DNA of 64,000 nt from an uncultured Acidobacteriota bacterium (GTDB taxonomy: Bacteria > Acidobacteriota > UBA6911 > CAINFC01), in assembly GCA_964617125.1 (NCBI GenBank), contig CAZTVS010000005.1, positions 16,529 to 80,528 of the forward strand. Reading direction: 5' to 3'. Positions 9,955-64,000 of the stretch are shown here, piece after piece. The position numbers and the translations under genes were made by a program. How positions within the stretch are numbered: the first letter of the stretch is position 1; every line of letters starts with the position of its first letter. The notes beneath the pieces were generated by a model. That model worked only from the letters and a program-made list of their open reading frames with translations. It had not been told where the DNA came from and made no database searches.

Positions 9955-10034
9955 CAATCTTTCCCTAATAAAATAATCAGGTACTAGAATACCTTAATAT
10001 GATACCGTTGTCAATCGCAAAAATAGAAATTCGT

Positions 10035-27317: not shown

Positions 27318-27382
27318 AGTAATATGATTATGTATCGTCGTATAGGAAGGTTCCTGGTGAGACCCGCTTCACCCTTAAACGC

Positions 27383-29914
<2,532 letters not shown>

Positions 29915-31324: not shown

Positions 31325-31330
31325 GTTCAA

Positions 31331-31581
31331 ATCCTCAAACTAGAATACGAATACTAAGATTCTATTCTTTATATAAATAAAAGTAGTCGTAATAGGACCG
31401 TAGGAAACTGTGGATTTCGCCCTAAACGATAGAAGTCATATTCTTTGCTTTGCACAACGCTTCCACATACGGGTTCGATATTTTCGTGGAAAAAAGAAAT
31501 AAAGGTTCTTTTCCGCGCTTTTCCTCAGAGATTCACAATCTCTCCACAGGGGATCCAGGAGTGGTTCTGTGGAAACAAATT
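31331..31581. promoter_or_regulatory. dnaA-dnaN intergenic region with four TGTGGA-containing DnaA-box-like 9-mers; possible part of oriC
   Basis: TGTGGATTT (31409-31417) is a 7/9 match to TGTGGATAA. Three more TGTGGA cores sit within 250 bp and the region is AT-rich. Confidence 0.35.
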
Positions 31582-32910: not shown

Positions 32911-32922
32911 AAATAATAGCAA

Positions 32923-43451: not shown

Positions 43452-45128
43452 ATGCAGCAAGAACACAGACTCGTCCTAGCACTCGCCTTGTCCGCTCTGG
43501 TTTTGTTCCTGGCCAGAATGTACATGACACCCGAACCCCAGAGTGTGCCGGAACCTGTCAAAAAGGAAGAAATCTCCAAAGAAACGGCATCTATCGAAAG
43601 GCCGGTTGTAGCTGCGGAAAAAGCAAAAGAGAGCGGGAGTTCCGGTCCGGAATCTCCGACACCCGTCGCGGCCACGCAGGCCCCGGAAAGGACCATCGCG
43701 ATTCAGGATCCCAAATACCGGATCGTATTACAGAGTCATGGGGCGAGGATCGAGAGCTGGAAATACAAAGAGAGATCCGGAAACGAAATGGAACTCGTCC
43801 TGCAGGACAAACCGAAAGATCTCTACGGACCCCTGGCCGTTATCGGTGGCGACGCGTCCGTCCAAGACAAGATAAACAATGCGATCTACGAAATCAGGGT
43901 GGTAGGACAGCAGGGAGATTCTCTGAAGACCCCGGTGGAACTGGAGTGTTTCTACCAGGAGGGTCCGTTAAAAATCAGTAAGAAAATGGGATTTGCCGAG
44001 TCCTCCTTTGTCGTGGAAACGATCACGGAAGTGGAGTATCAGGGAAAACGGCTGGAAGGACTGAAGTTACGTATTGGTCCGGCGATGGGCGCCTTTGATA
44101 CCCTGTTGAACAAAGCGACCTGGGACACTCAGGGTCTGGCGTATTATAGCAACGGCTCTCTGAACAAACTGCAATACAGCGCGATCGAAACGGAACAGAC
44201 GATGGAGGGAAGTATTCCCTGGGCCGGAATCCAGGACCAGTACTTCGCCATGCTGGCTATATCTCCGGAAGGGAAAAGCCTTCATGGAGGAAAGATCCTA
44301 TCCTGGAAGTATAAAGGCAAGGACATACAGGAGAAGGAGACCGAGTTTAACGTCGGGGCCATCGACATACCGCTTTTTCAGGGAGAAAAGCAAAGGATCT
44401 ATTTCGGTCCCAAGGAAGACCAACAGCTGAAAAGCATCCATCCTGCTCTGGACCAGGTCATAGACTACGGGTGGTTCCGCATCCTGGTGGAGCCGATGCT
44501 CTACGCCTTGCGCTGGATCCATTCTCTCACCCCCAATTACGGGGTGGCTATCATCATCATGACCTTTCTGATCACACTGGTCCTGTTCCCCTTACGCTTT
44601 AAGCAGATCATCTCCATGAAGAAGATGCAGAAAATTCAACCGCAGATGAAAGCGATTCAGGAACGATACAAAAAGGCTAAGAGCAGTGCGGAAGACAGAC
44701 AGAAGATGAATACGGAGATGATGGCTCTTTACAAGCAACACGGGGTCAACCCGGTGGGAGGGTGTCTGCCGCTGCTGATTCAATTTCCTTTCCTCATCGC
44801 CGTCTACAACCTGGTGGGAAATCACTTCAACCTCAGAGGAGCTCCCTTCCTTTTGTGGATACAGAACCTGGCTGCCCCCGATCCCTATTATGTGACCCCG
44901 ATCGTCATGGGCATCACCATGTTTCTCTCGATGAAACTGACCACACCGCCGACGGCAGGCGATCCTATGCAGAACAAGATGATGGCCTGGATGATGCCGG
45001 GTATGATGACATTTTTCTTTTTGGGAATGTCCGCAGGATTGAATGTCTATTTCCTATTCAGTAATATTTTCAGCATCGCCCTGCAAAAGGCGGCCGAACG
45101 ATACATTCCGGCTCTGAAAAATGCATGA
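43452..45128 (+). CDS. yidC: membrane protein insertase YidC
   Basis: N-terminal TM, a periplasmic domain, and a conserved C-terminal five-TM core (…YGVAIIIMTFLITLVLFPL…NPVGGCLPLLIQFPF…). Confidence 0.95.
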   Translation: MQQEHRLVLALALSALVLFLARMYMTPEPQSVPEPVKKEEISKETASIERPVVAAEKAKESGSSGPESPTPVAATQAPERTIAIQDPKYRIVLQSHGARIESWKYKERSGNEMELVLQDKPKDLYGPLAVIGGDASVQDKINNAIYEIRVVGQQGDSLKTPVELECFYQEGPLKISKKMGFAESSFVVETITEVEYQGKRLEGLKLRIGPAMGAFDTLLNKATWDTQGLAYYSNGSLNKLQYSAIETEQTMEGSIPWAGIQDQYFAMLAISPEGKSLHGGKILSWKYKGKDIQEKETEFNVGAIDIPLFQGEKQRIYFGPKEDQQLKSIHPALDQVIDYGWFRILVEPMLYALRWIHSLTPNYGVAIIIMTFLITLVLFPLRFKQIISMKKMQKIQPQMKAIQERYKKAKSSAEDRQKMNTEMMALYKQHGVNPVGGCLPLLIQFPFLIAVYNLVGNHFNLRGAPFLLWIQNLAAPDPYYVTPIVMGITMFLSMKLTTPPTAGDPMQNKMMAWMMPGMMTFFFLGMSAGLNVYFLFSNIFSIALQKAAERYIPALKNA

Positions 45129-45165
45129 AGCAACAACCAAGGACCGATAGCATACGGGTGGAAAA

Positions 45166-45615
45166 GTGAACAATCAACTGGAAGAAATCAAGAAAACAAC
45201 CGAACATCTCTGTCGTTGCATGAAATTCCATGTGGAGGTGGAGTGCGCGCCACAGGAAGAAGGAATACTTGTTAGTTTTAAGGGAAAAGATGCGGAATTC
45301 CTCCTGCTGAAAAACGGAGAGGTATTGAACGCTATGGAATACATCCTGAACCGTATCTTCTCCGAGAAACTGACCAAAGAGAACAAGATTGTCACCGACA
45401 GCCAGAATTTCCGGAAATTCCGGAATGACGAACTGAAGATGATCGCGCAAAAGGCCTCGGAAAAGGTCATGCAGTATGGATCCTCCGTGCAGCTGCAGGC
45501 CATGCCGCCTCACGAAAGAAGGATCATCCATATGGCCTTGAAAGAAAATAGCAAGGTGAAAACCATCAGTGAGGGGGAGGGAGAGGACCGGAAAGTGATC
45601 ATTGAACCGGCTTAA
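45166..45615 (+). CDS. Jag/KhpB-like RNA-binding protein (KH plus R3H domains)
   Basis: GTG start. A C-terminal R3H-like region (…MPPHERRIIHMALKE…). The position after yidC is the conserved synteny. Confidence 0.75.
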   Translation: MNNQLEEIKKTTEHLCRCMKFHVEVECAPQEEGILVSFKGKDAEFLLLKNGEVLNAMEYILNRIFSEKLTKENKIVTDSQNFRKFRNDELKMIAQKASEKVMQYGSSVQLQAMPPHERRIIHMALKENSKVKTISEGEGEDRKVIIEPA

Positions 45616-45642
45616 AGGGAAGTTCTTTACCGCACGCGGGGC

Positions 45643-46041
45643 TCAGGGCAAAAAGGAGCGAAGATAGGATAAAAAGGCCGAATCCGCCTCAGGAAAGGCA
45701 TAATCGGACAATTGTGCGGAGGTAACCCAACGAAAATCATTACACTGGAGAAGTTGCGGTTCTCCCTGCAAACGAACACACTTATAAAAATGGAGGATGA
45801 CACGAAAATCCTCATAGTCGTGGGAAATGGAAGAGATTCGGTTTCCCACGGAAATCTCCAATCCCAGTTCTTCCAGAATCTCACGATGAAGGCACTCCGC
45901 ATGACTCTCGCCCGGATGACACTTACCCCCGGGAAACTCCCACAGCAGAGAACAGTGTGCCTGCGCCAATCGTTGCGTAATCAGAAAACGGCCATCCTCA
46001 AACAGGACGGCCGCGCAAACCTCTACAGATTTCTTCGTCAT
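45643..46041 (-). CDS. Nudix hydrolase (MutT-like 8-oxo-dGTP/CTP pyrophosphohydrolase)
   Basis: Nudix box GGKCHPGESHAECLHREILEELGL. Confidence 0.8.
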   Translation of the reverse strand: MTKKSVEVCAAVLFEDGRFLITQRLAQAHCSLLWEFPGGKCHPGESHAECLHREILEELGLEISVGNRISSISHDYEDFRVILHFYKCVRLQGEPQLLQCNDFRWVTSAQLSDYAFPEADSAFLSYLRSFLP

Positions 46042-46118
46042 ATCGGTTCCCGTCTTTTGTTGCTGCCGACTCCATCATAATGGAAAGTAAAAAGAAATAC
46101 AAAGAAGGCAGATAGGAT

Positions 46119-47492
46119 ATGTTGACGGCCGAGGACACGATTGTGGCCATCGCCACTCCGATGGGAAAAGGCGCCATCAGCATGCTTCGCATCAGTGGAA
46201 GCAAAGCTCTGACCATTGCCGGCGAGTTATTCCAAAGCCAATCGACAGACCGAGAAATACGACCGTTTTTTCCTCACGTAGGAAAATTCTACGATCGCAA
46301 CCATCGCATGCTGGACCAGGTCGTGCTCCTGTACTACCAAAAACCAAAATCCTATACCGGCGAAGACCTGGTGGAGATATGCTGTCATGGGAGTCCGGTA
46401 GTGGCCGCGGAAATTCTCTCGGAGATACAGAAGCAGGGGGCACGCTGTGCCGATCCGGGAGAGTTTAGTCTACGGGCCTTTCTGAATGGGAAGATGGACC
46501 TGACCCAGGCCGAGAGTATACATCAGCTGATCGAAGCACAAACACTGAGGCAGGCGCAGATCGCCGTTACACAGATCGACGGGAGATTAACCGAAACCAT
46601 CGGGAAGATCAAAGAAGCGCTCCTGAAAATCATGGTGGATATGGAGACAGCCCTGGAATTCGAGGAACACGCAGCGCAAAAGGATGCGATGTATGAAACA
46701 GGCGTGCGGCAGATCGAGGAGGAATTGAATCGTCTGGTAAAGTGTTTTGCACAAGGGAACATACTACGAACCGGCAAAAAAATTGCCATCATCGGACGGC
46801 CAAACGTAGGAAAATCGAGTTTATTCAATCAGATAGTGAAGAAAGAAAGAGCTATTGTATATCACCTTCCCGGAACGACGCGCGATAGTATCCATGAAAC
46901 GGTAGAGATGAAGGGTGTACCCGTAACTATAATGGATACAGCGGGATGGAGAGCGACTCGAAACAGGGTGGAACAACAAGGGGTTGAGAGGAGTGCAAGG
47001 GCCATAGAAGAAGCGGATATGGTTCTCCTGGTGATCGACATGGAAAAAGGTGCTTCCAGGACGGAAGCGATGCTAAGGAACAAGGTACTGGCTTTGAACA
47101 AGGACATGATTGTGATTTGGAATAAGATCGATCGCTGTCCCCAGGATGCCAGAAGCCGGGGCAAATCGGACGCATGGGAAGACACCTGTTACCTTTCCGC
47201 CAAAAAGGGAACTGGTATAGATAGTCTGATTACGACCATAGAAAAAAAGATCCTGCCGGAGGAGAGGGGAACGGAGGAGACCATCCTGGTGGGAATACGG
47301 TATCAGGATTGTCTGGAAAGATGCCTGCTTCGTTTGCGAGATGCCGAGGAAAAAATCCGCTACCGCTATTCGGAAGAGTATGTCCTGGCCGATCTGAATG
47401 ACTCTCTGAAAATCCTGGGTGAGATTACCGGAGAGACGGTCACAGAAGAGATATTAGGCAGAATTTTCTCCAAATTCTGTATAGGAAAATAG
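46119..47492 (+). CDS. mnmE: tRNA modification GTPase MnmE
   Basis: N-terminal THF-binding domain, G-domain motifs (GRPNVGKSS, DTAG, NKID) and the C-terminal CIGK. Confidence 0.95.
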   Translation: MLTAEDTIVAIATPMGKGAISMLRISGSKALTIAGELFQSQSTDREIRPFFPHVGKFYDRNHRMLDQVVLLYYQKPKSYTGEDLVEICCHGSPVVAAEILSEIQKQGARCADPGEFSLRAFLNGKMDLTQAESIHQLIEAQTLRQAQIAVTQIDGRLTETIGKIKEALLKIMVDMETALEFEEHAAQKDAMYETGVRQIEEELNRLVKCFAQGNILRTGKKIAIIGRPNVGKSSLFNQIVKKERAIVYHLPGTTRDSIHETVEMKGVPVTIMDTAGWRATRNRVEQQGVERSARAIEEADMVLLVIDMEKGASRTEAMLRNKVLALNKDMIVIWNKIDRCPQDARSRGKSDAWEDTCYLSAKKGTGIDSLITTIEKKILPEERGTEETILVGIRYQDCLERCLLRLRDAEEKIRYRYSEEYVLADLNDSLKILGEITGETVTEEILGRIFSKFCIGK

Positions 47493-47493
47493 G

Positions 47494-49380
47494 GTGTCCA
47501 TAAGAAAAGATCAGTCGGAAGGTGCCTACGAGGTGATCGTTATCGGTGCAGGTCATGCCGGATGCGAGGCTGCCATGGCTGCGGCCAAGACCGGCTGTAA
47601 GACTGCTTTGATCACGATGAATCTCGATCTGATGGCTCAGATGTCGTGCAATCCATCGATCGGTGGGATAGGAAAAGGACACCTGGTATGTGAGATCGAC
47701 GCATTGGGAGGCGTCATGGCGGAGGTGGCCGACAGTGCGGCAATTCAATACCGATTGTTGAATAAGAGCCGGGGACCTGCCGTACAGGCCACACGAATCC
47801 AGGCTGATAAATCGATCTATCGGGCGAGAATGAAACAGCGGCTGGAGAAGGAGGAAAATCTCTTTCTCCTCCAGGGAGAAGTGGTAGACCTGGAAATGGA
47901 AGACGGGAGAGTTACCGGGGTGGAACTGCATGATACCAGGAAAATTCATGCCAGGGCGGTGGTTTTGACTGCCGGAACTTTTCTCAATGGCCTGGTACAT
48001 ATTGGAGAGATGCAGTTTCCAGCGGGAAGATCAGGGGAACCGGCCAGCATCAGGTTATCGCAAAGGCTGAAACAGGTCGGTCTGCAACCGGTCAGATTGA
48101 AAACGGGAACACCGGCAAGGATCGATGGGCGGACCATCGACAGGACGAAAATGGAAATTCAGCATGGAGACGAAAAGCCGGTCTTCTTTTCCAGACGAAC
48201 CAAGGAATGCAGCTTGACCCAGATCCCTTGCTTTCTGACCTATACCAATCAGGAGGTACACAGGATCATACGGGAGAATTTGCACCGCTCGGCCCTATAT
48301 GGTGGTCGGATCGTAGGCATTGGTCCCCGCTATTGCCCCTCCATCGAAGACAAGATTGTGAAATTCCCGGAAAAAGAGAGGCATCAGATCTTCATCGAAC
48401 CGGAAGGACTGACAACCAATGAGGTATATGTAAACGGTCTGTCCACAAGCCTGCCGATCGAGATCCAGGAGAGAATGATACACTCTGTACCCGGTCTGGA
48501 AAGGGCTGTAATCATACGCCCGGCCTACGCCATTGAGTACGATTTTTATCAGCCGAACGAGCTGAAGCTCTCTCTGGAGACAAATCGGATTCAGGGACTA
48601 TTCCACGCGGGACAGGTAAACGGAACAACCGGTTATGAAGAGGCGGCCGCTCAGGGATTGATCGCAGGGATCAATGCAGCCAGATTCAGCAGAAATCAGG
48701 AACCGTATATTCCGGACAGGGAAAACAGCTATATTGGTATTATGCTGCACGATATTACCGGAAAAGGTATCGACGAGCCTTACCGTATGTTCACCTCGAG
48801 ATCGGAATACCGACTGATCATGCGCACGGACAATGCGGATATCAGGCTTTCGGGGGACGCCCATAGGTTAGGTATGATCGGAGCCTCCGAGATAGAAAAA
48901 GTAGAAGAAAAAAAGAAAAAGATAGAACGCTGGAAGGAGCTGCTGAGAACGACACGCGGCAAACAGCTGCTGGAAATACCGGATGTGCAAATTAGCTGGC
49001 CGGAAGGCATATTGCAGCAAAACCTAATGGAAATATTAAAAAGGCCGGAAATACGCATCGAGAATATGTATCCCTTTCTAAAAAGGAACGAGGGGAAAGA
49101 GGATCTGGATGAAGAGACACTCAAGATCGTCGAGATAGAGGTAAAGTACGAAGGGTATGTGGCTAGGCAGGGAAAAGAGGCGGAAAAAAGTAGAAAAATG
49201 CGGGGAATGAACCTGCCGGCAGATATGGACTATGCCAGGATGGATGGTTTATCCAGAGAGATACGGGAAAAACTGGAACGACGGAAGCCGGCCAATCTGA
49301 AGGAGGCCAGCGAAATTCCCGGCGTTACTCCGGCAGCGATCATGATTCTGAGAATTTATCTGGAAATGAGGAAGAAGTGA
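47494..49380 (+). CDS. mnmG: tRNA uridine-5-carboxymethylaminomethyl modification enzyme MnmG (GidA)
   Basis: FAD-binding motif VIVIGAGHAGCEAA. Product is 628 aa. Confidence 0.95.
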   Translation: MSIRKDQSEGAYEVIVIGAGHAGCEAAMAAAKTGCKTALITMNLDLMAQMSCNPSIGGIGKGHLVCEIDALGGVMAEVADSAAIQYRLLNKSRGPAVQATRIQADKSIYRARMKQRLEKEENLFLLQGEVVDLEMEDGRVTGVELHDTRKIHARAVVLTAGTFLNGLVHIGEMQFPAGRSGEPASIRLSQRLKQVGLQPVRLKTGTPARIDGRTIDRTKMEIQHGDEKPVFFSRRTKECSLTQIPCFLTYTNQEVHRIIRENLHRSALYGGRIVGIGPRYCPSIEDKIVKFPEKERHQIFIEPEGLTTNEVYVNGLSTSLPIEIQERMIHSVPGLERAVIIRPAYAIEYDFYQPNELKLSLETNRIQGLFHAGQVNGTTGYEEAAAQGLIAGINAARFSRNQEPYIPDRENSYIGIMLHDITGKGIDEPYRMFTSRSEYRLIMRTDNADIRLSGDAHRLGMIGASEIEKVEEKKKKIERWKELLRTTRGKQLLEIPDVQISWPEGILQQNLMEILKRPEIRIENMYPFLKRNEGKEDLDEETLKIVEIEVKYEGYVARQGKEAEKSRKMRGMNLPADMDYARMDGLSREIREKLERRKPANLKEASEIPGVTPAAIMILRIYLEMRKK

Positions 49381-50021
49381 GCGAGCTGGAAAACATCCTT
49401 AAAGAGGAGGCCAAAAAGATCCCTTTGCCATTACCCGATGGAATTGTCCATAAAATTGTTCGCTACGACAATTTATTGCAGGAATGGAACCAGAGGATCA
49501 ATCTTACGGGATTGAACGATGCCAAAGAAAGAATCATTTGGCTTTACCTGGAATCGTTGTGGGCTGCCTCCCATCTGCAGAAAATAGATCACATCCTCGA
49601 TATAGGAGCGGGATGCGGATTTCCCGGAATGGCCATCCAGTGGTGGCATGATTGCCGGTTAACCATGCTGGAATCCAGAAAAAAGAAATGTGACTTTTTG
49701 CAGGAGGCCATATCTTGCTGCGATATGAGCGGGAGTGAGGTGAAAAACGTTCGATACGAAGGCGATCTTCCTATGCCGCTCAAGGAGAGGGGAGCGGAGA
49801 AGCTACTTTTTTGTTGGCGGGCCGTAAGCCTGGGTACAAAGACGATTCAAAGGATGGCGGGAAGCATGAGAAAAGGGGATGAACTGCTATGTTTTTTCGG
49901 AAGAGAGAGCAAGGATTTCCCGATCGTCGAAAAAAGTCCATTTCTTAAGGTAAAACTAAAAAAAGAATTTCCATTATCAAAGCAAAGATATATACTTCAG
50001 ATGATGAAATGTTCCACGTGA
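49377..50021 (+). CDS. rsmG: 16S rRNA (guanine527-N7)-methyltransferase RsmG (GidB)
   Basis: GTG start overlapping the mnmG stop. SAM motif DIGAGCGFPG. Confidence 0.85.
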   Translation: MSELENILKEEAKKIPLPLPDGIVHKIVRYDNLLQEWNQRINLTGLNDAKERIIWLYLESLWAASHLQKIDHILDIGAGCGFPGMAIQWWHDCRLTMLESRKKKCDFLQEAISCCDMSGSEVKNVRYEGDLPMPLKERGAEKLLFCWRAVSLGTKTIQRMAGSMRKGDELLCFFGRESKDFPIVEKSPFLKVKLKKEFPLSKQRYILQMMKCST

Positions 50022-50114
50022 AACAGAGGAAAGAAAAATTGGTTATACTGTTGTTCCACGTGAAACATTCTTGCCAACTCGTTTTCATATTTCAATAATT
50101 CAGGGTTTTGGGTT

Positions 50115-50891
50115 ATGTGCAAAATATATGCAATTGCCAATCAGAAGGGTGGAGTGGGAAAGACGACCACAACCATCAACCTGGGAGCGGCTTTGGCCTC
50201 GGGGGATCACAGTGTGTTGCTGGTCGATACGGATGCACAGGCCAATTGCAGTAGCGGATTAGGCTACAGGAGGACAGGTTCGCAGCCTACTTTATATGAT
50301 CTTCTATTGGACGGGACCTCTGCCAAAGATGTCATCCTGGATACCGATCTTCCCCGTTTGAAGCTTTTACCCTCGGATAAACGGCTGGCGGGAGCCGCGG
50401 TGGAGCTGATGCATGTGGAAGAGCGCGAATTTGTTCTGCGTCAAATTCTGAATGGCCTCCGGGACCAGTTTGAATTCATCCTGATCGATTGCCCCCCGGC
50501 CCTCAATATCCTGACGATCAATGCACTGGTGGCGGCAGACGGGGTTCTGGTTCCGATTCAAAGCGAGTACATGGCCCTGGAGGGCGTCTCCGATCTTCTC
50601 GATACGGTGGAAAGGGTCAGGCGAAGGTTCAATACCGGTCTGAAAATTTCCGGTATCGTTGCTACCATGTATGATGAGCGAACGAATTTATCCAATCAGA
50701 TACTCCAGGAGCTGGAGAAACACTTCTCCTCCAAGCTTTTCAAGACGATCATTCCCAGAAATATTCGTCTGGCCGAAGCCCCCAGCTTTGGCAAGCCGGT
50801 AATTCTTTACGATATTCGCTCCAAGGGCGCAGAATCTTATATCAATTTAGCCAAGGAAATGCTGACTCATGAAAAAAAGAGTATTGGGTAG
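50115..50891 (+). CDS. parA: chromosome partitioning ATPase ParA/Soj
   Basis: Deviant Walker A motif KGGVGKTTT. Confidence 0.9.
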   Translation: MCKIYAIANQKGGVGKTTTTINLGAALASGDHSVLLVDTDAQANCSSGLGYRRTGSQPTLYDLLLDGTSAKDVILDTDLPRLKLLPSDKRLAGAAVELMHVEEREFVLRQILNGLRDQFEFILIDCPPALNILTINALVAADGVLVPIQSEYMALEGVSDLLDTVERVRRRFNTGLKISGIVATMYDERTNLSNQILQELEKHFSSKLFKTIIPRNIRLAEAPSFGKPVILYDIRSKGAESYINLAKEMLTHEKKSIG

Positions 50892-51726
50892 GGGACTCGA
50901 TGCCCTGATTCCGGATAGCGATCCTCGCGACGATTCTCCGGAGAAACTGAAAGAGATCGATCTGGATTTGATCGATCCTAATCCGGTTCAGCCCCGGACC
51001 AGAGGCAATTATGGCGATCTGGATGGATTGGTCACATCGATTAAGGAGAGTGGTGTCATCCAGCCGATTCTGGTCCGTAAGATCGGGTCCCGTTATCAAT
51101 TGATTGCCGGGGAAAGAAGATGGACAGCCGCCCAACGGGCCGGCCTGCTGAGAATACCGGCGGTGGTGAAGGAGGTCCCCGACAATCACCTCCTGGAAAT
51201 CGCCTTGGTGGAGAATATCCAACGTCAGGAATTGACGTGCATCGAAGAGGCCTCGGCTTACAGGCAATTAATGGACGAATTGAAGCTGACACAGGAAGAG
51301 GTTGCGGCCAAGGTGGGGAAGGACCGGGCAACGGTGGCTAATATGCTGAGGCTGCTGAAGCTGCCCGATGTCATTCAGGATATGATCCAGGAGGGCAAGC
51401 TGGCCATGGGACATGCCCGTCCTCTGCTCTCCCTGGAATCGAAGACACAGCAGATCAAACTGGCGGAAGAAGCCATCCGTCATGGCCTATCTGCCAGGGC
51501 GGTGGAATCGAAGGTGAATTTGCTGTTAAAGACTATATCTGGAGAACAGGGTGGCAGGAAGAAGAAGGCAAGCGATGCGAATATCGCAGCCGCCATCGAA
51601 GACCTGCGAAAACATTTGGGAACCAAGGTGGAAATGACCGGGTATAAGAAAAAAGGAAAAATCATCCTGCATTATTTTTCGGAAGATGAGTTGGAACGCT
51701 TGTTTGATCAATTGATGGGTCGTTGA
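50869..51726 (+). CDS. parB: chromosome partitioning protein ParB/Spo0J
   Basis: ParB box (IAGERRWTAAQ) and HTH. Confidence 0.9.
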   Translation: MKKRVLGRGLDALIPDSDPRDDSPEKLKEIDLDLIDPNPVQPRTRGNYGDLDGLVTSIKESGVIQPILVRKIGSRYQLIAGERRWTAAQRAGLLRIPAVVKEVPDNHLLEIALVENIQRQELTCIEEASAYRQLMDELKLTQEEVAAKVGKDRATVANMLRLLKLPDVIQDMIQEGKLAMGHARPLLSLESKTQQIKLAEEAIRHGLSARAVESKVNLLLKTISGEQGGRKKKASDANIAAAIEDLRKHLGTKVEMTGYKKKGKIILHYFSEDELERLFDQLMGR

Positions 51727-51776
51727 CGGGTCTTATATGTATCGGGATTATTTCAAGAAAGGTAAGGAACCAAGCC

Positions 51777-52199
51777 ATGCTTATTAAAGGAAAACAGGGA
51801 GACTTGGAAGGATTTTTAGGTCCGAACACAAACTTGAAAGGCGAGCTTCGATTCAAGGAATTTCTACGCATCGACGGCAAGTTCGACGGAATTGTGGAGA
51901 GTGGAGGGACCCTTCAGGTAGGGGAAACCGGACATCTGACCGCCAAGATCAATTCAAAAAACGTGGAAATATCAGGCAAAGTGGAGGGAACCCTGAGAGC
52001 GAGCGGAATGGTCTCCATACTGCATCAGGGGAGGGTGATCGGCGATATCACCACGCCCATCCTGATCGTGGAAGAGGGTGCCCTCCTGGATGGAAAATGC
52101 AACATGCTCAACGTCAAGGAGAACCTGGCCAAGGGCAATCAGGATACTCTGGGTGGAGGAAAGGTTCTGACTTCCCGGCCGGATGAGATCAAAAAATGA
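51777..52199 (+). CDS. bactofilin-family cytoskeletal protein
   Basis: The ATG at 51777 gives MLIKGKQGDLEG…. The DUF583 beta-helix repeat pattern is present (…GELRFKEFLRIDGKFDGIVESGGTLQVGETGHLTAKI…VEISGKVEGTLRASGMVSI…). The ORF track offers an upstream start at 51723. Confidence 0.75.
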   Translation: MLIKGKQGDLEGFLGPNTNLKGELRFKEFLRIDGKFDGIVESGGTLQVGETGHLTAKINSKNVEISGKVEGTLRASGMVSILHQGRVIGDITTPILIVEEGALLDGKCNMLNVKENLAKGNQDTLGGGKVLTSRPDEIKK

Positions 52200-57557: not shown

Positions 57558-58472
57558 ATGAACACCTCGATAGAAGCCTTTCTTACCCACCTTCAGTACG
57601 AACGACAGTTCTCGGATCACACCCTTCTGGGCTATCGCAACGATCTCCGGCAGTTCTACGATTTCCTGAAAAAGATCGCACGGGACCAGCCGGTCCCTTC
57701 CTGGAAGGAGGTGGATCATTACACCATACGCGAATATCTGGCGGATCTCTATGCCCGCGGTATCTGTAAAACCTCGATAGGAAGAAAAATTTCTTCCCTG
57801 CGCTCCTTTTTCACTTATTTGCAGCGGATGGGAGCGGTGGAAACGAATCCGGCAAAACTGGTCTCCTCGCCGCGTAAGGAGAAAAAACTGCCGGAGTATC
57901 TTACCGAAGATTATGCCGCCATGCTGGTGAGCAGTCCGGATGATGCCCTTTTCCCCGGAGCGCGGGACCGGGCCCTGCTGGAGCTTTTATATGCCAGCGG
58001 CATACGGGTCAGCGAGTTGGTAGGTCTGAACTGGGACGATCTTCTGCTGGCGGAACAGACCATCCTGGTACGTGGAAAAGGGAAGAAAGAGCGTATGGTC
58101 CCTTTCGGCAGGAAGGCGAAAGAAGCCCTGGAGAAGTATGGCCGAGCACGTTCGGAGTATTTCAGTAAAAAACCGGGAGCTACCGGCTGGAACCCGAAAG
58201 CGGTATTTCTGAATCTTCGTGGAGGCAGGCTCACGGCCCGGTCGGTGCGGCGTATCCTGAATATCCATGTGAATCGCTGCAGCCGGCAGATGCATGTCTA
58301 TCCGCACATGCTGCGCCATTCCTTCGCCACCCACCTTCTGAATGCCGGTGCCGATCTGCGCATGATCCAGGAACTGCTGGGTCATGAGAGCATCTCCACC
58401 ACCCAGAAATATACCCATGTATCCTTGCAGCAGCTGATGGCCGTCTATCAGAAAGCCCACCCCAAAGCCTGA
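57558..58472 (+). CDS. xerC: tyrosine recombinase XerC/XerD (chromosome dimer resolution)
   Basis: An N-terminal core-binding domain (…FLTHLQYERQFSDHTLLGYRNDLRQF…) and the catalytic R…HxxR…Y region (HMLRHSFATHLL…GHESISTTQKYTHV) are collinear with XerC. Confidence 0.85.
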   Translation: MNTSIEAFLTHLQYERQFSDHTLLGYRNDLRQFYDFLKKIARDQPVPSWKEVDHYTIREYLADLYARGICKTSIGRKISSLRSFFTYLQRMGAVETNPAKLVSSPRKEKKLPEYLTEDYAAMLVSSPDDALFPGARDRALLELLYASGIRVSELVGLNWDDLLLAEQTILVRGKGKKERMVPFGRKAKEALEKYGRARSEYFSKKPGATGWNPKAVFLNLRGGRLTARSVRRILNIHVNRCSRQMHVYPHMLRHSFATHLLNAGADLRMIQELLGHESISTTQKYTHVSLQQLMAVYQKAHPKA

Positions 58473-58584
58473 AGTAAGAATGGGGAACCTCCCCCCGGCT
58501 GAACCGTTTAACCCCAGAGAAACTAAGATTCTGGAAGGAATACGAGAAATTGCATTGAGTGGGGTGGTGGGTTATAGTGATAGG

Positions 58585-59223
58585 ATGTCTTTAGTAAAGG
58601 TATGGAAGGAAAGGCATAATCGGATAACAGCCGGGCGGAGACGGTATTTTTGCCTAGGCTTGATCCTGATGGGAATGATACTGCCCGGATGTACGAAACG
58701 GGTACTTACCCGAGGAGAAGCCCGCGACGCCCTGGTGCAGATACCCGGACTTCCTCTTCCTAAAGACAACGTTCTGATACAAAAGGTGAGCCAGCTGGAT
58801 AACACCCATGCCGTAGTGGAAGCGGATCTGACGGTCGCTTTTCAGATGGAGAGAATTGGAAACCGGTGGATAGCGAGTCAGATGCGTTTGGATAAGGGTA
58901 AATGGGTTAAAGTGGAGGATCTGCAACAGGACATAGAAAAATCCCGAAGGACCCAGACCGTTCACGATTTGCATCTGGTAGCCCTGGCACTGGAGCGTTA
59001 TCGAAACCAGAAGGGGGATTATCCGGAAACATGTCCGATTCTCCAGCTGACCAATACCCTTTTTCCGCATTATCTATCGCGCATGGTCTTTCGCGATGCC
59101 TGGGACAACGATTTTATCTATCGGCGGGAGAATCCCCGGCAATTTCAGCTCCTCTCCTGTGGTCCCGACGGCAAAAGCGATTCCCCTGACGATTTTCAGG
59201 TGGGGAACACCCAGCCGCAATAA
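58585..59223 (+). CDS. putative lipoprotein with C-terminal type-II-secretion GspG-like (pseudopilin) globular domain, no prepilin leader
   Basis: The C-terminus …DAWDNDFIYRRENPRQFQLLSCGPDGKSDSPDDF… matches the T2SS-G domain. The ATG at 58585 gives a signal peptide ending LPGC. The ORF track starts at 58480. Confidence 0.5.
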   Translation: MSLVKVWKERHNRITAGRRRYFCLGLILMGMILPGCTKRVLTRGEARDALVQIPGLPLPKDNVLIQKVSQLDNTHAVVEADLTVAFQMERIGNRWIASQMRLDKGKWVKVEDLQQDIEKSRRTQTVHDLHLVALALERYRNQKGDYPETCPILQLTNTLFPHYLSRMVFRDAWDNDFIYRRENPRQFQLLSCGPDGKSDSPDDFQVGNTQPQ

Positions 59224-59229
59224 GGCTTT

Positions 59230-60123
59230 ATGATAAAACTGCAAATTCTACGGATCGGATTTCTGCTGCTGACTATCCTGGTGTATCCACCGCTCTTTCT
59301 TTCCTGCAGCCAGGAAGGAAAGCCCGGCGCGGCAGGTTCTGCCTTGGCCGAGGGGCAGGGCATCGCCTGGATCACCCAATACCAGCAGGCTCTGGAAATA
59401 GCCGGGAAAGAGAACAAACCCATCCTGCTCGATCTATATACCGATTGGTGCGGCTGGTGTAAGAAGATGGATGCCGGTACCTTCACCGATCCGCAGGTAA
59501 TCGAGTTCAGCCGCCGCATGGTTTTTTTAAAATTGAACGCAGAGACAGAGAAAGATGGGATTGCCTTGCAGCAGAAGTTTGAGATCGCCTCTTTCCCCAC
59601 GACCCTGGTTATGGATTCGGGAGGAGAGGAGATCGACCGTGTACCGGGTTACCTGACGGCGGAAGAGTTTGTGAGTTCTGTCGAAGAAATTCTCAAGCAA
59701 AAGGATGCCCTGGCGGAATTGGCAAAACAGGAAGCGAATAACAGCGACGATCTGCAAACCCAGTATGACCTGGGAAAACGATATTACCAAAAAAGAAATT
59801 ACAAACAGGCCAAAGTACGCTTTGACCGCATCATCGTCAAAGACCGGGAGAACCGATCCGGTCTGGTGGGAGATGCACATTTCTATAAGGGTCTTTGCAG
59901 CGCCCATATGAATCAGATGGATGAGGCCATCGCCCTTCTGCGGCAGGCGCATAAATCCTATCCCAAGAGCAAACACGCACCGGATGCCGAACTGGTCCAT
60001 GCTGAGATTCTGATGAAAACCCAGCGCACCGGAGAAGCCAGGAAGATTTTCCAGGAGTTTTTAAAAAAGCATCCTGAACATCGGATGGCGGAACAAGTAC
60101 GACAGTTGATGGCCGACTTATAA
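59230..60123 (+). CDS. thioredoxin-fold (WCGWC) lipoprotein with C-terminal TPR repeats
   Basis: Signal peptide with LSC lipobox, thioredoxin-like motif LDLYTDWCGWCKKMD, and a C-terminal TPR. Confidence 0.65.
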   Translation: MIKLQILRIGFLLLTILVYPPLFLSCSQEGKPGAAGSALAEGQGIAWITQYQQALEIAGKENKPILLDLYTDWCGWCKKMDAGTFTDPQVIEFSRRMVFLKLNAETEKDGIALQQKFEIASFPTTLVMDSGGEEIDRVPGYLTAEEFVSSVEEILKQKDALAELAKQEANNSDDLQTQYDLGKRYYQKRNYKQAKVRFDRIIVKDRENRSGLVGDAHFYKGLCSAHMNQMDEAIALLRQAHKSYPKSKHAPDAELVHAEILMKTQRTGEARKIFQEFLKKHPEHRMAEQVRQLMADL

Positions 60124-60139
60124 TCGAACGAGAGATGGT

Positions 60140-61189
60140 ATGCAAAAACGACTCCTGAGGCGATGGCTCTTTCACGGAACTCTTGTCGGCCTGTTTTGCT
60201 TTTCGTTTGCATGGTCGCAGGTTACTCCCTCGGAGAAAAAAGCGAGCCAGTCTGCTCCTTCCACTACCCTGCCACAACCGACACCTGCGGCCTCCGAGGC
60301 CCAGCCCGGATTCAAGATCGGTGTGGAAGTCAATATGGTAAGTCTTCCGGTAAGCGCCCGATTGGCATCCGGCGGATTCGCCAAGGGCATTCCCCAGGAA
60401 GCATTCCACGTGTATGAAGACGGAATGGAACAGGAGATTGTTATGTTCCAGCAGGAATCCGTGCCGGTGCATGTGGTGCTGATGATCGATTGCAGCGGTA
60501 GTGTACAGACGGAATGGAGGCCGATCAAACATGCCGCCCGGCGTTTTGCCGAAGCGCTGACCAAAGAGGACCGTCTTTCGGTGATAGCCTTCAACACGCA
60601 AACGAAATTGGTGGTGGATTGGACGGAGGACGGTGCGGCCCTGACGGACAAGGCCCTAAATCGTATCCTTCCCAAAGGCAATACCGCCCTTTTCGATGCC
60701 TTGTATGTGGTTTTTGACGATCTCTTTAAGGGAGTGACGGGAAAAAAAGCGGTCATCCTGCTTACCGACGGCTTCGATAACAACAGCCAGGTCACCTATG
60801 AACAGGCACTGGACCTGGCGACGCGTTCGGAAGCCCTCATCTATGTGGTGAGTAAAACCCAGGCCCTGCGCAATACCCTGGAATTTTACCAGAGCCAGTA
60901 CGGCAATATGAATCTCGATCCCATGGATTTCGCCGCCGCCGATTCGATGCTCAAACACCTGACGTTCCAGACCGGCGGCCGGGTTCTTTATCCCGGCACC
61001 TTCGGAGAGCTGGGCAATGTCTATCTGGAAGTGGCCCAGGAGCTGGCCAATCAATATGCGGTCGGTTACGTTCCCTACAATGCCTTGAAAGACGGCAAAT
61101 ATCGCAATGTACGAGTCACCGTGGACCGGGCGGAGGTACGTATTTCCACCCGCCCTGGTTATTATGCCCCGCTGGGGAAAGGGAAATAA
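60140..61189 (+). CDS. secreted von Willebrand factor A (VWA) domain protein
   Basis: Signal peptide and a VWA MIDAS motif (DCSGS…T…D). Confidence 0.7.
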   Translation: MQKRLLRRWLFHGTLVGLFCFSFAWSQVTPSEKKASQSAPSTTLPQPTPAASEAQPGFKIGVEVNMVSLPVSARLASGGFAKGIPQEAFHVYEDGMEQEIVMFQQESVPVHVVLMIDCSGSVQTEWRPIKHAARRFAEALTKEDRLSVIAFNTQTKLVVDWTEDGAALTDKALNRILPKGNTALFDALYVVFDDLFKGVTGKKAVILLTDGFDNNSQVTYEQALDLATRSEALIYVVSKTQALRNTLEFYQSQYGNMNLDPMDFAAADSMLKHLTFQTGGRVLYPGTFGELGNVYLEVAQELANQYAVGYVPYNALKDGKYRNVRVTVDRAEVRISTRPGYYAPLGKGK

Positions 61190-61219
61190 TTTCCTATACG
61201 GTGTGGAAGGAAAGGAAAC

Positions 61220-62983
61220 ATGCTTTCTGGCAAAAAAAATGCTCTCATCCTCCTGTTTCTTTGCTGGTTGGTTGGCGATCGCCTGGAAGCCGGTATCTCC
61301 CGGGAGATCCAGCAGGAATACCGCCAGCGCTACGAAGGCAGGGCCCTCTTTCTGGGAATTCCCGTCCATGGCGTCCGCACGGTCGTTGCCGTACGCAGCG
61401 GCGGGGCTACGCCGGAAAGGTCCCTGGAGCCGCTGCGTTTCAAGGTGGGAGAACAGGTCCGGATTCAATCCCTGTCCTTCGGCGACACGGAAATCCGGTT
61501 CAAAATCTCTTCCGTCGAAGGAGGCCAAGCATCCGAATTGGTATTCCGCTTTTCTGCTTCCCTGGAGGAGGAGTTCAGTTCCCGGTCGCAATTCGAATCC
61601 TCTCTGCAGACCGCCTTTTCCGAAGGTCGACGCTACAGCGATCTGGACCAGAGCAAGAAGGACTATATCCGCAACCAGTTGCAGCAAACCATCCAGGACA
61701 TGATGAACGGGACCACGGCCGACCGGGATTTTGTGATGAATGCCCTGGCCGAGTCCCTGCCGGCCTATCAGACGGCGGTCAATGAACTGAAGAACCTGCG
61801 AGGCAATGTCAAAGATCTGAGTTACAAGCTGTCCGGCGAGCAGACCAAATCGCGTCAGCTGGAATCGAAGCTGGTCGACCAGACCAGTGAACTGAACCGC
61901 CTGCGCAGCATGTCGGACTCGCTGAAAAGCGATCTGACGGCGGTCAACGCCTCCAGCAGCAGCGCCAACACCGAACTACGACAATTACGTCAGGAACAGA
62001 CGGAGATCACCGCTTCCGTGCGTCGTCTGCAGAAAGGTCTGAACCTGCCGGCAGACGCCTCCAAATCCTTGTCCAGGCAAGTGGAAGATCTGATGGTCGC
62101 CGCTTTGAAGAATAAAGGTCAGGGGGACCAGACCAGCAACCGCTTGAAGACTTCCGAACTGGAACTGGAAAAAAAGAAATCGGATCTGCAGGCACAGCTC
62201 AAAGCCAACGATCAGCTCACTTCCGAAAATGCCCGGCTGCAGGAGAACATCAAACTCCTCTCTTCTCGCGGAGATCAGCTGGGCCAGCGCTACCTCTCCC
62301 TGCAGAAGGAAAAAGTGCAGCTGGAGAATTTCGTCCGGGCCGTACAAGCCCTGCGTTCGCGGATTGTGGCGGAAAAGGTGGAGAAGAACCGTGTTTTCCG
62401 CACCACCGAACTGCTTCTCCGCGATACCCAGGTGGCCGTATTGGAAACGGAGTATCCCACCCATCTGGGAGTGGGGGACCGAGGAGACATACGTATACGG
62501 TTTACCTCGGCCTCCATCAATTATGTCAAATTGACCGAAGAAGAGAAGCGGATTTTAAGCTCCCTCGGCGATAAACTGATCGTTCGTTGCGAATTGCGTG
62601 ACCTGGGAGACGGTGCCCGGGTGGTATCCGGTACCAAAGAACTCACCCAGACGGTGCCCGAGCGGTCTTCCGGAGAGTGGAGCTGGACCCTGGAAAGTGC
62701 ACGGATAGCCGATTTCAATCCTGTACTGCTCACCTCCCTGGTCAATGCCAGCCGGGATTCCGTGCCTGTCGTGCACAACCAGCTGCGGGTGGAATCGATG
62801 AACCTGGCGCGTAGGATACGCAATTTTTTGTCTCCGATTCCTTTAGGCATAGGAGCCGTCATGGGCATGGTGCTTTTTGCCTCCATACAGGCGCTGCGCC
62901 GTTTCGGCGGAAGGCGACGGCGCAGACCCCTGGGCCGGTCCTCCCCGCATGCACCTGCCGGTCGGGAACGCATTGAATTGTAG
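61220..62983 (+). CDS. signal-peptide-bearing long coiled-coil protein with C-terminal TM anchor and Arg-rich tail
   Basis: N-terminal signal peptide. About 350 aa of heptad-like Q/L/E/K-rich sequence, a C-terminal TM (IPLGIGAVMGMVLFASIQAL), then RRFGGRRRRRPLGR. Confidence 0.55.
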   Translation: MLSGKKNALILLFLCWLVGDRLEAGISREIQQEYRQRYEGRALFLGIPVHGVRTVVAVRSGGATPERSLEPLRFKVGEQVRIQSLSFGDTEIRFKISSVEGGQASELVFRFSASLEEEFSSRSQFESSLQTAFSEGRRYSDLDQSKKDYIRNQLQQTIQDMMNGTTADRDFVMNALAESLPAYQTAVNELKNLRGNVKDLSYKLSGEQTKSRQLESKLVDQTSELNRLRSMSDSLKSDLTAVNASSSSANTELRQLRQEQTEITASVRRLQKGLNLPADASKSLSRQVEDLMVAALKNKGQGDQTSNRLKTSELELEKKKSDLQAQLKANDQLTSENARLQENIKLLSSRGDQLGQRYLSLQKEKVQLENFVRAVQALRSRIVAEKVEKNRVFRTTELLLRDTQVAVLETEYPTHLGVGDRGDIRIRFTSASINYVKLTEEEKRILSSLGDKLIVRCELRDLGDGARVVSGTKELTQTVPERSSGEWSWTLESARIADFNPVLLTSLVNASRDSVPVVHNQLRVESMNLARRIRNFLSPIPLGIGAVMGMVLFASIQALRRFGGRRRRRPLGRSSPHAPAGRERIEL

Positions 62984-63043
62984 TCAACCGCCATCGGCAA
63001 CGTTTGCAAGGCACCGCTCTTCCGGCAGAACGACGAACCTTAC

Positions 63044-63070
63044 GCAGGTCTTTCCTGCCGGTTGTTTTTT
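63044..63070 (+). terminator. rho-independent terminator candidate downstream of the coiled-coil gene
   Basis: GCAGG-tcttt-CCTGC stem-loop followed by CGGTTGTTTTTT. Confidence 0.45.
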
Positions 63071-63116: not shown

Positions 63117-64000
63117 ATGGCTGGGGAGAGTAAGCGTAGATTTCTGGAAGCTATCCATCATCGGGAGAGTCCCTTGCCCGTAGATTTTGGTGCCACGACG
63201 GTAACGGGAATACATGTCTCCTGCGTGGCTGCCTTGCGCGATCACTATGGTCTGGAGCGGCGCCTGGTCAAAGTACACGAGCCCTACCAGATGCTGGGAC
63301 TCATCGATGAGGATCTGAAACAAGCCCTGGGGATCGATGTGGAAGGAGTCTTTGCCCCCCGGACCATGTTTGGTTTTGCCAATCAGAATTGGAAAGAATG
63401 GAGGATGCCCGACGGGCTGGAAGTCCTGGTTTCCGGTGAATTCCGAACCACTGTCGATGCCCGGGGAGACATCCTGATTTATCCCGAAGGAGACCTCTCC
63501 GCCCCTGCCAGCGCCAGGATGCCAACAGACGGGTATTTCTTCGACAGCATCATTCGCCAGGGTCCAATCGACGAAGATCATTTGCATCCGGAAGATAACC
63601 TGGAGGAATTCCAACCGATCACCGACGCCGATCTCGCTTATTTCCGCCAGGCCGTGACAGAGGCTGCTTCCACCGGGAGAGGCGTCATCGCCAATTTCGG
63701 AGGGACCGCCTTCGGCGATATCGCCCTGGTTCCTGCACCCTTTCTCAAATATCCCCGCGGGATTCGCGATGTCGCCGAATGGTACATGGCCACCCGCAGC
63801 CGGCGTGACTATATACACCGCATTTTCGCGCGTCAATGTGAAATCGCCCTCTCCAATCTGGAACGGATCTTCCAGGTGGTCGGGAACCAGGTCGATGCCG
63901 TTTTCCTCTGCGGGACCGATTTTGGCACGCAGAAATCGACTTTCTGTTCTCTGGAGGCCTTTACCGATCTTTATTTTCCCTATTATCGCAGCCTCAACCG
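63117..64000 (+). CDS. uroporphyrinogen-decarboxylase (URO-D) family protein, 3'-partial
   Basis: The frame is open from the ATG at 63117 to the window end. The N-terminus …FLEAIHHRESPLPVDFGATTVTGIHVSCVAALRDHYGL… resembles MtaA/CmuA-type URO-D-like methyltransferases. It is absent from the ORF track because no stop falls inside the window. Confidence 0.55.
   Translation, partial: MAGESKRRFLEAIHHRESPLPVDFGATTVTGIHVSCVAALRDHYGLERRLVKVHEPYQMLGLIDEDLKQALGIDVEGVFAPRTMFGFANQNWKEWRMPDGLEVLVSGEFRTTVDARGDILIYPEGDLSAPASARMPTDGYFFDSIIRQGPIDEDHLHPEDNLEEFQPITDADLAYFRQAVTEAASTGRGVIANFGGTAFGDIALVPAPFLKYPRGIRDVAEWYMATRSRRDYIHRIFARQCEIALSNLERIFQVVGNQVDAVFLCGTDFGTQKSTFCSLEAFTDLYFPYYRSLN

What the first reader, a model, noticed from the sequence alone, without database searches (positions are those of the whole stretch)
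58480..62983. Four-gene envelope cluster downstream of xerC: pseudopilin-like lipoprotein, thioredoxin-TPR lipoprotein, VWA protein, long coiled-coil membrane protein
Four consecutive same-strand genes encode exported proteins with interaction-type domains (GspG-like, thioredoxin plus TPR, VWA/MIDAS, coiled coil). The intergenic gaps are 6-30 bp and a terminator follows the last gene. No ATPase, secretin or MoxR partner is present. The combination recalls Bat (VWA/TPR) aerotolerance operons and pilus-like periplasmic scaffolds, but matches neither. This is a candidate uncharacterised periplasmic assembly.
Basis: inference. Interest (0 to 1): 0.5.

Follow-up and report, generated by a model that had tools for sequence, protein, structure and literature searches.

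The report
Two unrelated envelope gene pairs, adjacent
The four exported-protein genes are real and tightly packed, but in related Acidobacteriota they separate into two independently inherited units, so this looks like a recent juxtaposition of ordinary uncharacterised envelope genes, not a four-part machine.

Summary
Four same-strand ORFs follow xerC, with gaps of 6, 16 and 30 bp. A weak terminator-like hairpin follows. The 64-kb window holds no secretin, T2SS ATPase, MoxR, DUF58 or DsbD.

- **g1+g2:** a g1-family gene lies directly upstream of g2 in 6 of 7 informative contexts (g2 identity 34-56%). Three of these are a stand-alone recG | pair | ribA operon. VWA follows g2 in none of 5 contexts.
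- **g3:** a widespread, highly conserved acidobacterial singleton with unrelated neighbours at 66%, 55% and 51% identity.
- **g4:** lineage-restricted. It follows g3 only here, in a 95-97% identical sister, and in one 66-76% identical lineage where ksgA, not g1-g2, precedes g3.

The best reading is a lineage-specific juxtaposition of two modules. One is a periplasmic DsbDγ-like Trx-TPR lipoprotein with a non-polymerising pseudopilin-fold partner. The other is a MIDAS ligand-binding protein with a clade-specific membrane tether. The functions are inferred. Interest is low to moderate, and the conserved g1-g2 pair is the only part worth following up.

The parts
57558..58472 (+). xerC tyrosine recombinase. 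Upstream neighbour, not part of the modules.
   Evidence: TIGR02224, 354 bits against a cutoff of 335; Phage_integrase, 150 bits. It is not adjacent to g1-g2 or g3-g4 in any other lineage examined.
58585..59223 (+). g1: lipoprotein with an N-terminal beta domain and a GspG-type pseudopilin head domain, without the prepilin N-terminus. The longest ORF starts at 58480; the likely start is M36 at 58585.
59230..60123 (+). g2: lipoprotein with a DsbD-gamma-like thioredoxin domain (WCGWC) and a CpoB/BamD-like TPR domain.
   Evidence: Pfam and NCBIfam hits. The closest PDB sequences are the DsbD C-terminal domains and 2kuc. DWCG[WY]C, KLNAE and the cis-Pro P123 are invariant in 16 full-length homologues. 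A g1-family gene lies directly upstream in 6 of 7 informative contexts.
60140..61189 (+). g3: secreted VWA protein with a complete MIDAS motif, a member of TIGR03436 (acidobacterial VWFA family).
   Evidence: TIGR03436, 191.5 bits against 81.25. 522 homologues, mostly about 50% identical and named Acidobacteriota where a name is given. MIDAS residues are invariant. Neighbours are unrelated in L092, L005 and L007.
61220..62983 (+). g4: signal peptide, N-terminal beta domain, long helical/coiled-coil region, C-terminal mixed domain, one TM helix and an Arg-rich tail. Lineage-restricted.
   Evidence: No Pfam family; only coiled-coil-type hits to SMC/Rad50/LmuB. Hydrophobic segments. Heptad signal. 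AF2 secondary structure at pLDDT 44.7. Homologues seen only at 97% and 66% identity, always directly after g3.
63022..63070 (+). Terminator-like hairpin plus U-tract between g4 and the downstream corrinoid methyltransferase operon.
   Evidence: Consensus scan and fold. Folding energy is not better than shuffles (z = -0.28).

Best explanation
The row of four genes is a lineage-specific juxtaposition, probably co-transcribed here, of two separately inherited envelope modules. It is not one dedicated machine.

**Module A (g1+g2)** is a two-gene operon conserved across Acidobacteriota.
- g2 is a membrane-tethered periplasmic thiol-disulfide oxidoreductase. Its redox-active CxxC thioredoxin domain is closest to the DsbD gamma domain. 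A CpoB/BamD-like TPR domain would hold a partner or client.
- g1 is a lipoprotein whose C-terminal half is a GspG-type pseudopilin head. It retains the acidic 'SxGPDGxxGTxDDI' loop that binds calcium in GspG.
- g1 lacks the prepilin signal and the hydrophobic helix needed for filament assembly, so it cannot polymerise. It most likely acts as the fixed partner or adaptor of g2.
- Inferred: g2 receives electrons from a DsbD/CcdA encoded elsewhere and keeps envelope clients reduced.

**Module B** is g3, a secreted MIDAS-bearing VWA protein of the acidobacterial TIGR03436 family. This family is a conserved stand-alone gene in most Acidobacteriota and presumably binds an acidic ligand through its metal site. 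In this narrow clade g3 has acquired g4, a bitopic inner-membrane coiled-coil protein. Inferred: g4 tethers or organises g3 at the membrane.

Shown: the domain content, the folds of g1, the conserved motifs, and the pattern of gene-pair conservation. Inferred: every biochemical role and any physical contact.
For: Decoupling of the four genes:
- L003/L004 (g3 76%, g4 66% identical) read ksgA-g3-g4-UROD. No g1 or g2 lies within 8 kb upstream.
- L008, an uncultured Acidobacteria MAG, has g3-g4.
- L092 (g3 66%) reads moeA-moaC-VWA-DAO. L005 (55%) and L007 (51%) have g3 alone.

g1-g2 pairing:
- A T2SSG-domain gene of 181-210 aa lies directly upstream of g2 homologues in P0124/P0402 (55%), L093 (56%; g1-family HMM 190 bits), P0131 (39%), L091 (39%) and L009 (34%; 1-nt overlap).
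- The gene after g2 is convergent ribA, a BlaI-like gene or a beta-lactamase, never VWA.
- None of 80 metagenome loci holding thioredoxin-domain relatives carries g3 or g4.

Folds and motifs.

Absence of T2SS, MoxR and DsbD genes in the window.
Against: - In this genome and its 95-97% identical sister the four genes are 6-30 bp apart with no room for internal promoters. They are probably one transcript, which could reflect a real, newly evolved functional link.
- The g1-g2 pairing is not universal. L010 (g2 40% identical) has a PIN/antitoxin pair upstream.
- Only about seven independent contexts were seen.
- The contigs of the 55% lineage all end just after g2, so what follows there is unknown.
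- Outside the signal peptide g1 has no conserved cysteine, so it is not an obvious redox substrate.
- No interaction prediction could be run.
- The g4 model is low confidence.
Confidence: 0.72

Rival explanations
1. The four products form one previously undescribed periplasmic assembly: a pseudopilin-like scaffold, a redox/TPR adaptor, a VWA adhesion module and a coiled-coil membrane strut.
For: All four genes are on the same strand with 6-30 bp gaps, and all products are exported. The arrangement appears to be kept in the 95-97% identical sister contig of 14.6 kb, which carries g2, g3 and g4 relatives.
Against: The four genes are not co-conserved beyond the sister. g3-g4 occurs without g1-g2 in L003, L004 and L008. 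g1-g2 occurs without g3-g4 in five or more lineages. g3 occurs alone in three.
Confidence: 0.1
2. A divergent Bat-type (VWA/TPR) aerotolerance operon.
For: A VWA protein and a TPR protein are adjacent. There are weak hits to the Leptospira BatA and BatC models.
Against: BatA_Lepto scores 20 bits against 380 and BatC_Lepto 16.7 against 175. g3 has no TM helix. No MoxR ATPase or DUF58 is present among the main ORFs of the 64 kb that were scanned. The TPR gene and the VWA gene segregate independently in relatives.
Confidence: 0.03
3. g1 is a component or remnant of a type II secretion or type IV pilus system, and the cluster is an accessory pilus-like scaffold.
Against: None of 76 family members has a class III (prepilin) signal motif. 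Most have a lipobox Cys instead. A globular beta domain takes the place of the polymerisation helix. TIGR01710 is far below its cutoff. No GspD/E/F or PilB/C/Q genes lie in the window or in any of the g1-g2 contexts.
Confidence: 0.05
4. The four are functionally unrelated single genes that happen to be packed together, and even the g1-g2 and g3-g4 pairings carry no functional meaning.
For: g3 is usually a singleton. g4 is confined to close relatives, where shared synteny is expected anyway: the downstream URO-D/corrinoid genes are also syntenic in L003. L010 lacks g1 upstream of g2.
Against: g1-g2 adjacency persists down to 34% g2 identity, in at least three different flanking contexts, with overlapping or closely spaced genes of 1-nt overlap to 32-bp gaps. 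That is hard to explain without selection.
Confidence: 0.1

Closest known systems
GspG/EpsG/PulG major pseudopilin of the type II secretion system
   Different: g1 has no prepilin-peptidase site and no hydrophobic alpha1-N helix. It has a lipoprotein signal and an extra N-terminal beta domain. No T2SS genes are nearby. It scores below the TIGR01710 cutoff.
DsbD gamma domain and other membrane-tethered periplasmic thioredoxins (TlpA/ResA/DsbH type)
   Same: The g2 thioredoxin domain is closest to DsbD C-terminal domains in the PDB (E about 1e-14). It has an invariant CxxC and cis-Pro and is periplasmic.
   Different: g2 has no DsbD alpha or beta domains (NF001419 scores 72 bits against 330). 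It is fused to a TPR domain and lipid-anchored. Its electron donor and clients are unknown.
CnoX (YbbN) chaperedoxin: thioredoxin plus TPR
   Same: Same two-domain order, Trx then TPR. A JGI annotation of homologues reads 'thioredoxin-like negative regulator of GroEL'. PF14561 (TPR_20) scores 24.6 bits, just under its cutoff of 25.
   Different: CnoX is cytoplasmic. g2 has a signal peptide and lipobox, and a DsbD-gamma-like rather than CnoX-like thioredoxin domain.
Bat (Bacteroides aerotolerance) operon: BatA-E with MoxR and DUF58
   Same: VWA and TPR proteins of the envelope are encoded side by side.
   Different: There is no MoxR or DUF58. The VWA protein has no TM anchor. The Bat models score far below their cutoffs. 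The VWA and TPR genes are not co-inherited.
TIGR03436 'VWFA-related acidobacterial domain' family
   Same: g3 is a full-length member (191.5 bits) with all MIDAS residues.
   Different: Nothing distinguishes g3 itself. The family has no characterised function: no paper in the searched library mentions TIGR03436. The g4 partner is specific to this clade.

Membership tests
T2SS major pseudopilin GspG (TIGR01710 / PF08334) | Pfam T2SSG domain above its gathering score | tested here: met
   33.9 bits against 21, residues 150-237
T2SS major pseudopilin GspG (TIGR01710 / PF08334) | Equivalog model TIGR01710 above its trusted cutoff | tested here: not met
   34.8 bits against 88.85
T2SS major pseudopilin GspG (TIGR01710 / PF08334) | Class III signal peptide (G|F-T-L-x-E) and hydrophobic alpha1-N helix | tested here: not met
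   The motif is absent in g1 and in all 76 aligned relatives. Cys occupies the lipobox column in 48 of 76.
T2SS major pseudopilin GspG (TIGR01710 / PF08334) | GspG head fold | tested here: met
T2SS major pseudopilin GspG (TIGR01710 / PF08334) | Encoded with the T2SS machinery (GspD/E/F) | tested here: not met
   None in the 64-kb window or in the six g1-g2 contexts
Bat aerotolerance operon | BatA/BatB-type membrane-anchored VWA protein | tested here: not met
   NF047508 scores 20 bits against 380. No TM segment in g3.
Bat aerotolerance operon | BatC-type TPR protein | tested here: not met
   NF047507 scores 16.7 bits against 175
Bat aerotolerance operon | Linked MoxR AAA+ ATPase and DUF58 | tested here: not met
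   Absent from the main ORFs of the window that were scanned with Pfam, and from L001 downstream
TIGR03436 acidobacterial VWFA family | Model score above cutoff over the full length | tested here: met
   191.5 bits against 81.25, profile positions 3-324 of 324
TIGR03436 acidobacterial VWFA family | Intact MIDAS motif (DxSxS...T...D) | tested here: met
   D117, S119, S121, T182 and D210 are invariant in 24 sequences
DsbD (full-length thiol:disulfide interchange protein) | Alpha, beta (membrane) and gamma domains; model NF001419 | tested here: not met
   72.3 bits against 330. Only the gamma-like region aligns, profile positions 446-572.
Redox-active thioredoxin fold | CxxC active site and cis-Pro | tested here: met
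   WCGWC in g2. C74, C77 and P123 are invariant in 16 homologues.
CnoX/YbbN chaperedoxin | Cytoplasmic thioredoxin plus YbbN-type TPR (PF14561) | tested here: not met
   PF14561 scores 24.6 bits against 25. g2 has a signal peptide and lipobox, so it is extracytoplasmic.
Four-gene co-conserved operon (the finding's own claim) | All four genes adjacent in related genomes | tested here: not met
   Seen only in this lineage and its 95-97% identical sister. The genes are decoupled in every other lineage examined.

The most novel reading that the evidence does not exclude
The g1-g2 pair is an undescribed periplasmic redox module found across Acidobacteriota. In it, a pseudopilin head domain has been turned from a fibre subunit into a lipid-anchored, non-polymerising partner or client adaptor of a DsbD-gamma-like thioredoxin-TPR lipoprotein. 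In this one clade the pair has additionally been wired into the same transcript as a MIDAS-VWA protein and its coiled-coil membrane tether, which would hint that the VWA protein is one of its clients.
Probability: 0.25. Interest if true: 0.5.

Novelty: new variant of a known kind. Interest (0 to 1): 0.27.

Why it matters
As posed, it matters little. The cluster is not a conserved system, and three of the four proteins belong to recognisable domain families.

The useful by-products are these:
- **A sizeable uncharacterised family.** It has 473 representatives at 50% clustering. These are lipoproteins carrying a GspG-type pseudopilin head without the pilin N-terminus, so the pilin fold is being used outside fibres.
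- **A recurrent pairing.** That family repeatedly sits next to a CxxC thioredoxin-TPR lipoprotein. This gives a concrete, testable candidate for envelope redox maintenance in Acidobacteriota, a phylum whose envelope biology is poorly known.
- **An annotation fix.** Public annotation truncates g1 at M64 and so hides its signal peptide.

Tried and rejected
- **g1, word-indexed search:** found only itself. The exhaustive search was needed.
- **g4, genome scan:** gave one locus. The first metagenome scan gave none, so the distribution of g4 is known only from three lineages.
- **g1-family alignment as a scan query:** too diverse to use.
- **Second metagenome scan, with the g2 alignment:** returned mostly thioredoxin-only proteins. 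Only about eight were full length, and none had g1-family, g3 or g4 genes.
- **AF2 of g4 with five sequences:** pLDDT 44.7. It was therefore not used for fold search.
- **PADLOC:** only coiled-coil-type hits of g4 to LmuB and JetC. These were rejected as compositional.
- **Literature searches** (TIGR03436; Acidobacteria + VWFA; PF08334; pseudopilin-like lipoprotein; periplasmic Trx-TPR lipoprotein): nothing relevant.
- **Rfam and tRNA scans:** no regulatory RNA near the cluster.
- **GC and GC3 per gene:** g1-g2 are slightly lower (0.51) than g3-g4 (0.55-0.57), but within the range of neighbouring core genes. This is not evidence of transfer.
- **Interaction prediction:** a linker-fusion AF2 model of g1+g2 was considered and dropped.
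Full report
**1. What is in the sequence**

Four + strand ORFs lie at 58480-59223 (g1), 59230-60123 (g2), 60140-61189 (g3) and 61220-62983 (g4). They are separated by 6, 16 and 30 bp.

Upstream are the methylmalonyl-CoA mutase small and large subunits, meaB, and a bona fide xerC (TIGR02224, 354 bits against a cutoff of 335). Downstream, after a 133-bp gap, a corrinoid methyltransferase operon begins. It encodes a URO-D/MtaA-like protein, a B12-binding protein, S-methyl_trans, DUF1638 and RACo.

The gap contains a hairpin at 63022-63061 followed by a U-tract. The region folds no better than shuffled sequence (z = -0.28), so 'terminator-like' is all that can be said.

**2. The four proteins**

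- **g1** matches Pfam T2SSG above its gathering score (33.9 bits against 21) over residues 150-237. It is far below the GspG equivalog cutoff (34.8 bits against 88.85).
- **g2** has a thioredoxin domain with WCGWC, followed by TPR repeats. Its best NCBIfam matches are the DsbD C-terminal region and YbgF/CpoB, both well below their full-length cutoffs. The closest solved sequences are DsbD gamma domains (E about 1e-14).
- **g3** is a full-length member of TIGR03436 (191.5 bits against 81.25). It has DCSGS at residue 117. Across 24 homologues, D117, S119, S121, T182 and D210 are invariant, so the MIDAS motif is complete.
- **g4** has no Pfam family.
  - It has an N-terminal hydrophobic segment and one TM segment near residues 535-560, followed by an Arg-rich tail.
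  - It has long helices at about 122-390 in a low-confidence AF2 model (pLDDT 44.7).
  - It has heptad periodicity above shuffles over about residues 150-295.
  - Its hits to SMC, Rad50, LmuB and JetC are coiled-coil composition only.

Pfam scans of the main ORFs across the 64 kb found no secretin, T2SS/T4P ATPase or platform, MoxR, DUF58, or DsbD/CcdA.

One correction concerns g1. It most likely starts at M36 (58585), giving 212 aa. That start puts its Cys in the family's lipobox column (48 of 76 members have Cys there) and matches the 190-215 aa length of relatives. Public gene calls start at M64 and remove the signal peptide.

**3. g1 belongs to a real, uncharacterised family**

The word-indexed search found only g1 itself. 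An exhaustive phmmer search of 1.84 billion cluster representatives found 473 relatives at E <= 1e-3 and 119 at E <= 1e-10. Most are 190-215 aa and match end to end.

The alignment shows three parts:
- a signal peptide, usually ending in Cys;
- an N-terminal beta domain with conserved W95, R101 and W107;
- a C-terminal region with invariant D171, G193, D195 and D202, and nearly invariant W173, S191 and D203. This is the 'D-W-...-S-x-G-P-D-G-x-x-G-T-x-D-D-I' signature of GspG.

None of 76 members has a prepilin cleavage motif.

So 'pseudopilin-like lipoprotein' is correct. Without the hydrophobic alpha1-N helix, however, g1 cannot be a fibre subunit. That last point follows from established pilin biology.

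**4. The co-conservation test**

g3 homologues:
- The 76%-identical relative (L003/L004, with g4 66% identical) reads prismane-Rrf2-...-purA-trx-ksgA-g3-g4-UROD-B12-MT. It has no g1-family or g2-family gene within 8 kb upstream.
- The only species-representative genome with a g4 relative is an uncultured Acidobacteria MAG with the same g3-g4 pair.
- At 66% identity (L092) g3 sits between moaC and a DAO oxidoreductase gene. At 55% (L005) and 51% (L007) it also stands alone with unrelated neighbours.

g2 homologues: a T2SSG-domain gene of 181-210 aa lies immediately upstream in each of the following.
- P0124/P0402 (55%), after a HEAT/3-keto-disaccharide-hydrolase gene.
- L093 (56%), where the upstream ORF scores 190 bits on the g1-family HMM and the downstream gene is a convergent BlaI-like gene.
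- P0131, L091 and L009 (39%, 39% and 34%). All three share the context recG(-) | pair(+) | ribA(-), and in L009 the two genes overlap by 1 nt.

L090 (42%) has a convergent beta-lactamase gene after g2. L010 (40%) is the one exception, with a PIN/antitoxin pair upstream. More distant Trx-TPR proteins (L017) and 70-odd thioredoxin-only relatives have no g1-family neighbour, and none has g3 or g4.

Tally:
- g1-g2 adjacency: 6 of 7 informative contexts outside this lineage.
- VWA after g2: 0 of 5.
- g4 after g3: only in the closest clade.

**5. Interpretation**

The cluster is a recent juxtaposition of two modules.

Module A (g1+g2) behaves as an autonomous, translationally coupled two-gene operon that has been inherited across Acidobacteriota. 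Named members include 'Candidatus Aminicenantes' and 'Acidobacteriota' MAGs. My best mechanistic guess has three parts:
- g2 is a lipid-anchored periplasmic thiol reductase of the DsbD-gamma/TlpA kind, fed by a DsbD/CcdA encoded elsewhere.
- Its TPR domain holds a partner.
- g1 is that fixed partner or adaptor.

Outside the signal peptide g1 has no conserved cysteine, so it is unlikely to be the redox substrate.

Module B is g3, a highly conserved acidobacterial MIDAS protein (mean column identity 58%). It normally acts alone. In this clade it has gained a bitopic coiled-coil neighbour that could tether it to the inner membrane.

All functional statements are inference. What is shown is the domain content, the folds, the motifs and the synteny.

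**6. Comparison with known systems**

- **Not a Bat operon.** The Bat models score far below their cutoffs, there is no MoxR or DUF58, the VWA protein has no TM anchor, and the VWA and TPR genes are not co-inherited.
- **Not a pseudopilus.** There is no class III signal and no T2SS machinery.
- **g2 versus CnoX.** g2 resembles CnoX in domain order only, and it is extracytoplasmic.
- **g3.** It is an ordinary TIGR03436 member. No paper in the searched library mentions that family, or a pseudopilin-fold lipoprotein paired with a thioredoxin.

**7. Verdict**

Novelty is a new variant of known kinds. The undescribed element is the conserved pairing of a non-polymerising GspG-fold lipoprotein with a Trx-TPR lipoprotein.

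Interest is low to moderate (0.27). Nothing here is very surprising to a specialist, and function remains untested. The g1-g2 pair is nonetheless a clean, testable lead for envelope redox biology in Acidobacteriota.

Noticed in passing
window 24834-52199: The window spans the chromosomal origin neighbourhood. gyrA, gyrB, dnaN and dnaA lie on the - strand (24834-32922). yidC, mnmE, mnmG, rsmG, parA, parB and a bactofilin gene lie on the + strand (43452-52199). The four-gene cluster is therefore about 26-30 kb from dnaA, in core chromosome.
   Followed up: partly
window 58480-58669: Public gene calls start g1 at M64 (184 aa), which deletes its signal peptide and lipobox. Family alignment supports M36 at 58585. 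A 222-aa call exists in a sister strain.
   Followed up: yes
window 63117-64000 and L001 6033-12139: Directly downstream is a corrinoid-dependent methyltransferase operon: URO-D/MtaA-like, B12-binding protein, S-methyl_trans, DUF1638, a second URO-D, and a RACo-type reductive activase. A similar block follows g4 in L003, though its first gene is only 43% identical.
   Followed up: no
window 7807-9957 versus L003 1478-3714: A hybrid-cluster protein (Prismane) plus Rrf2 regulator pair lies 50 kb from g3 in the window. In the 76%-identical relative it lies a few kb upstream of ksgA-g3-g4, which shows rearrangement between these lineages.
   Followed up: no
contigs carrying P0124 and P0402 (no DNA held): At least four independently assembled contigs of the 55% g2 lineage end within about 100 bp after g2. 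This suggests a repeat or variable element immediately downstream.
   Followed up: no
hits P0258, P0259, P0271, P0274, P0277 and others: About 300-aa members of the g1 family match the query in two stretches. They appear to be tandem duplications or extended versions of the beta-domain plus pseudopilin-head unit.
   Followed up: no
window 1858-4368 (-) and 14612-16480 (-): Two large ORFs (836 aa and 622 aa) have no Pfam match at E <= 1e-5. A 1020-aa DUF5107+TPR protein lies at 4492-7554.
   Followed up: no
L009 4047-4613, L091 23-613, and the P0131 contig: An ECF-type sigma factor gene (Sigma70_r2) is syntenic two genes away from the recG | g1-g2 | ribA locus in three lineages. Any regulatory link is untested.
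   Followed up: no
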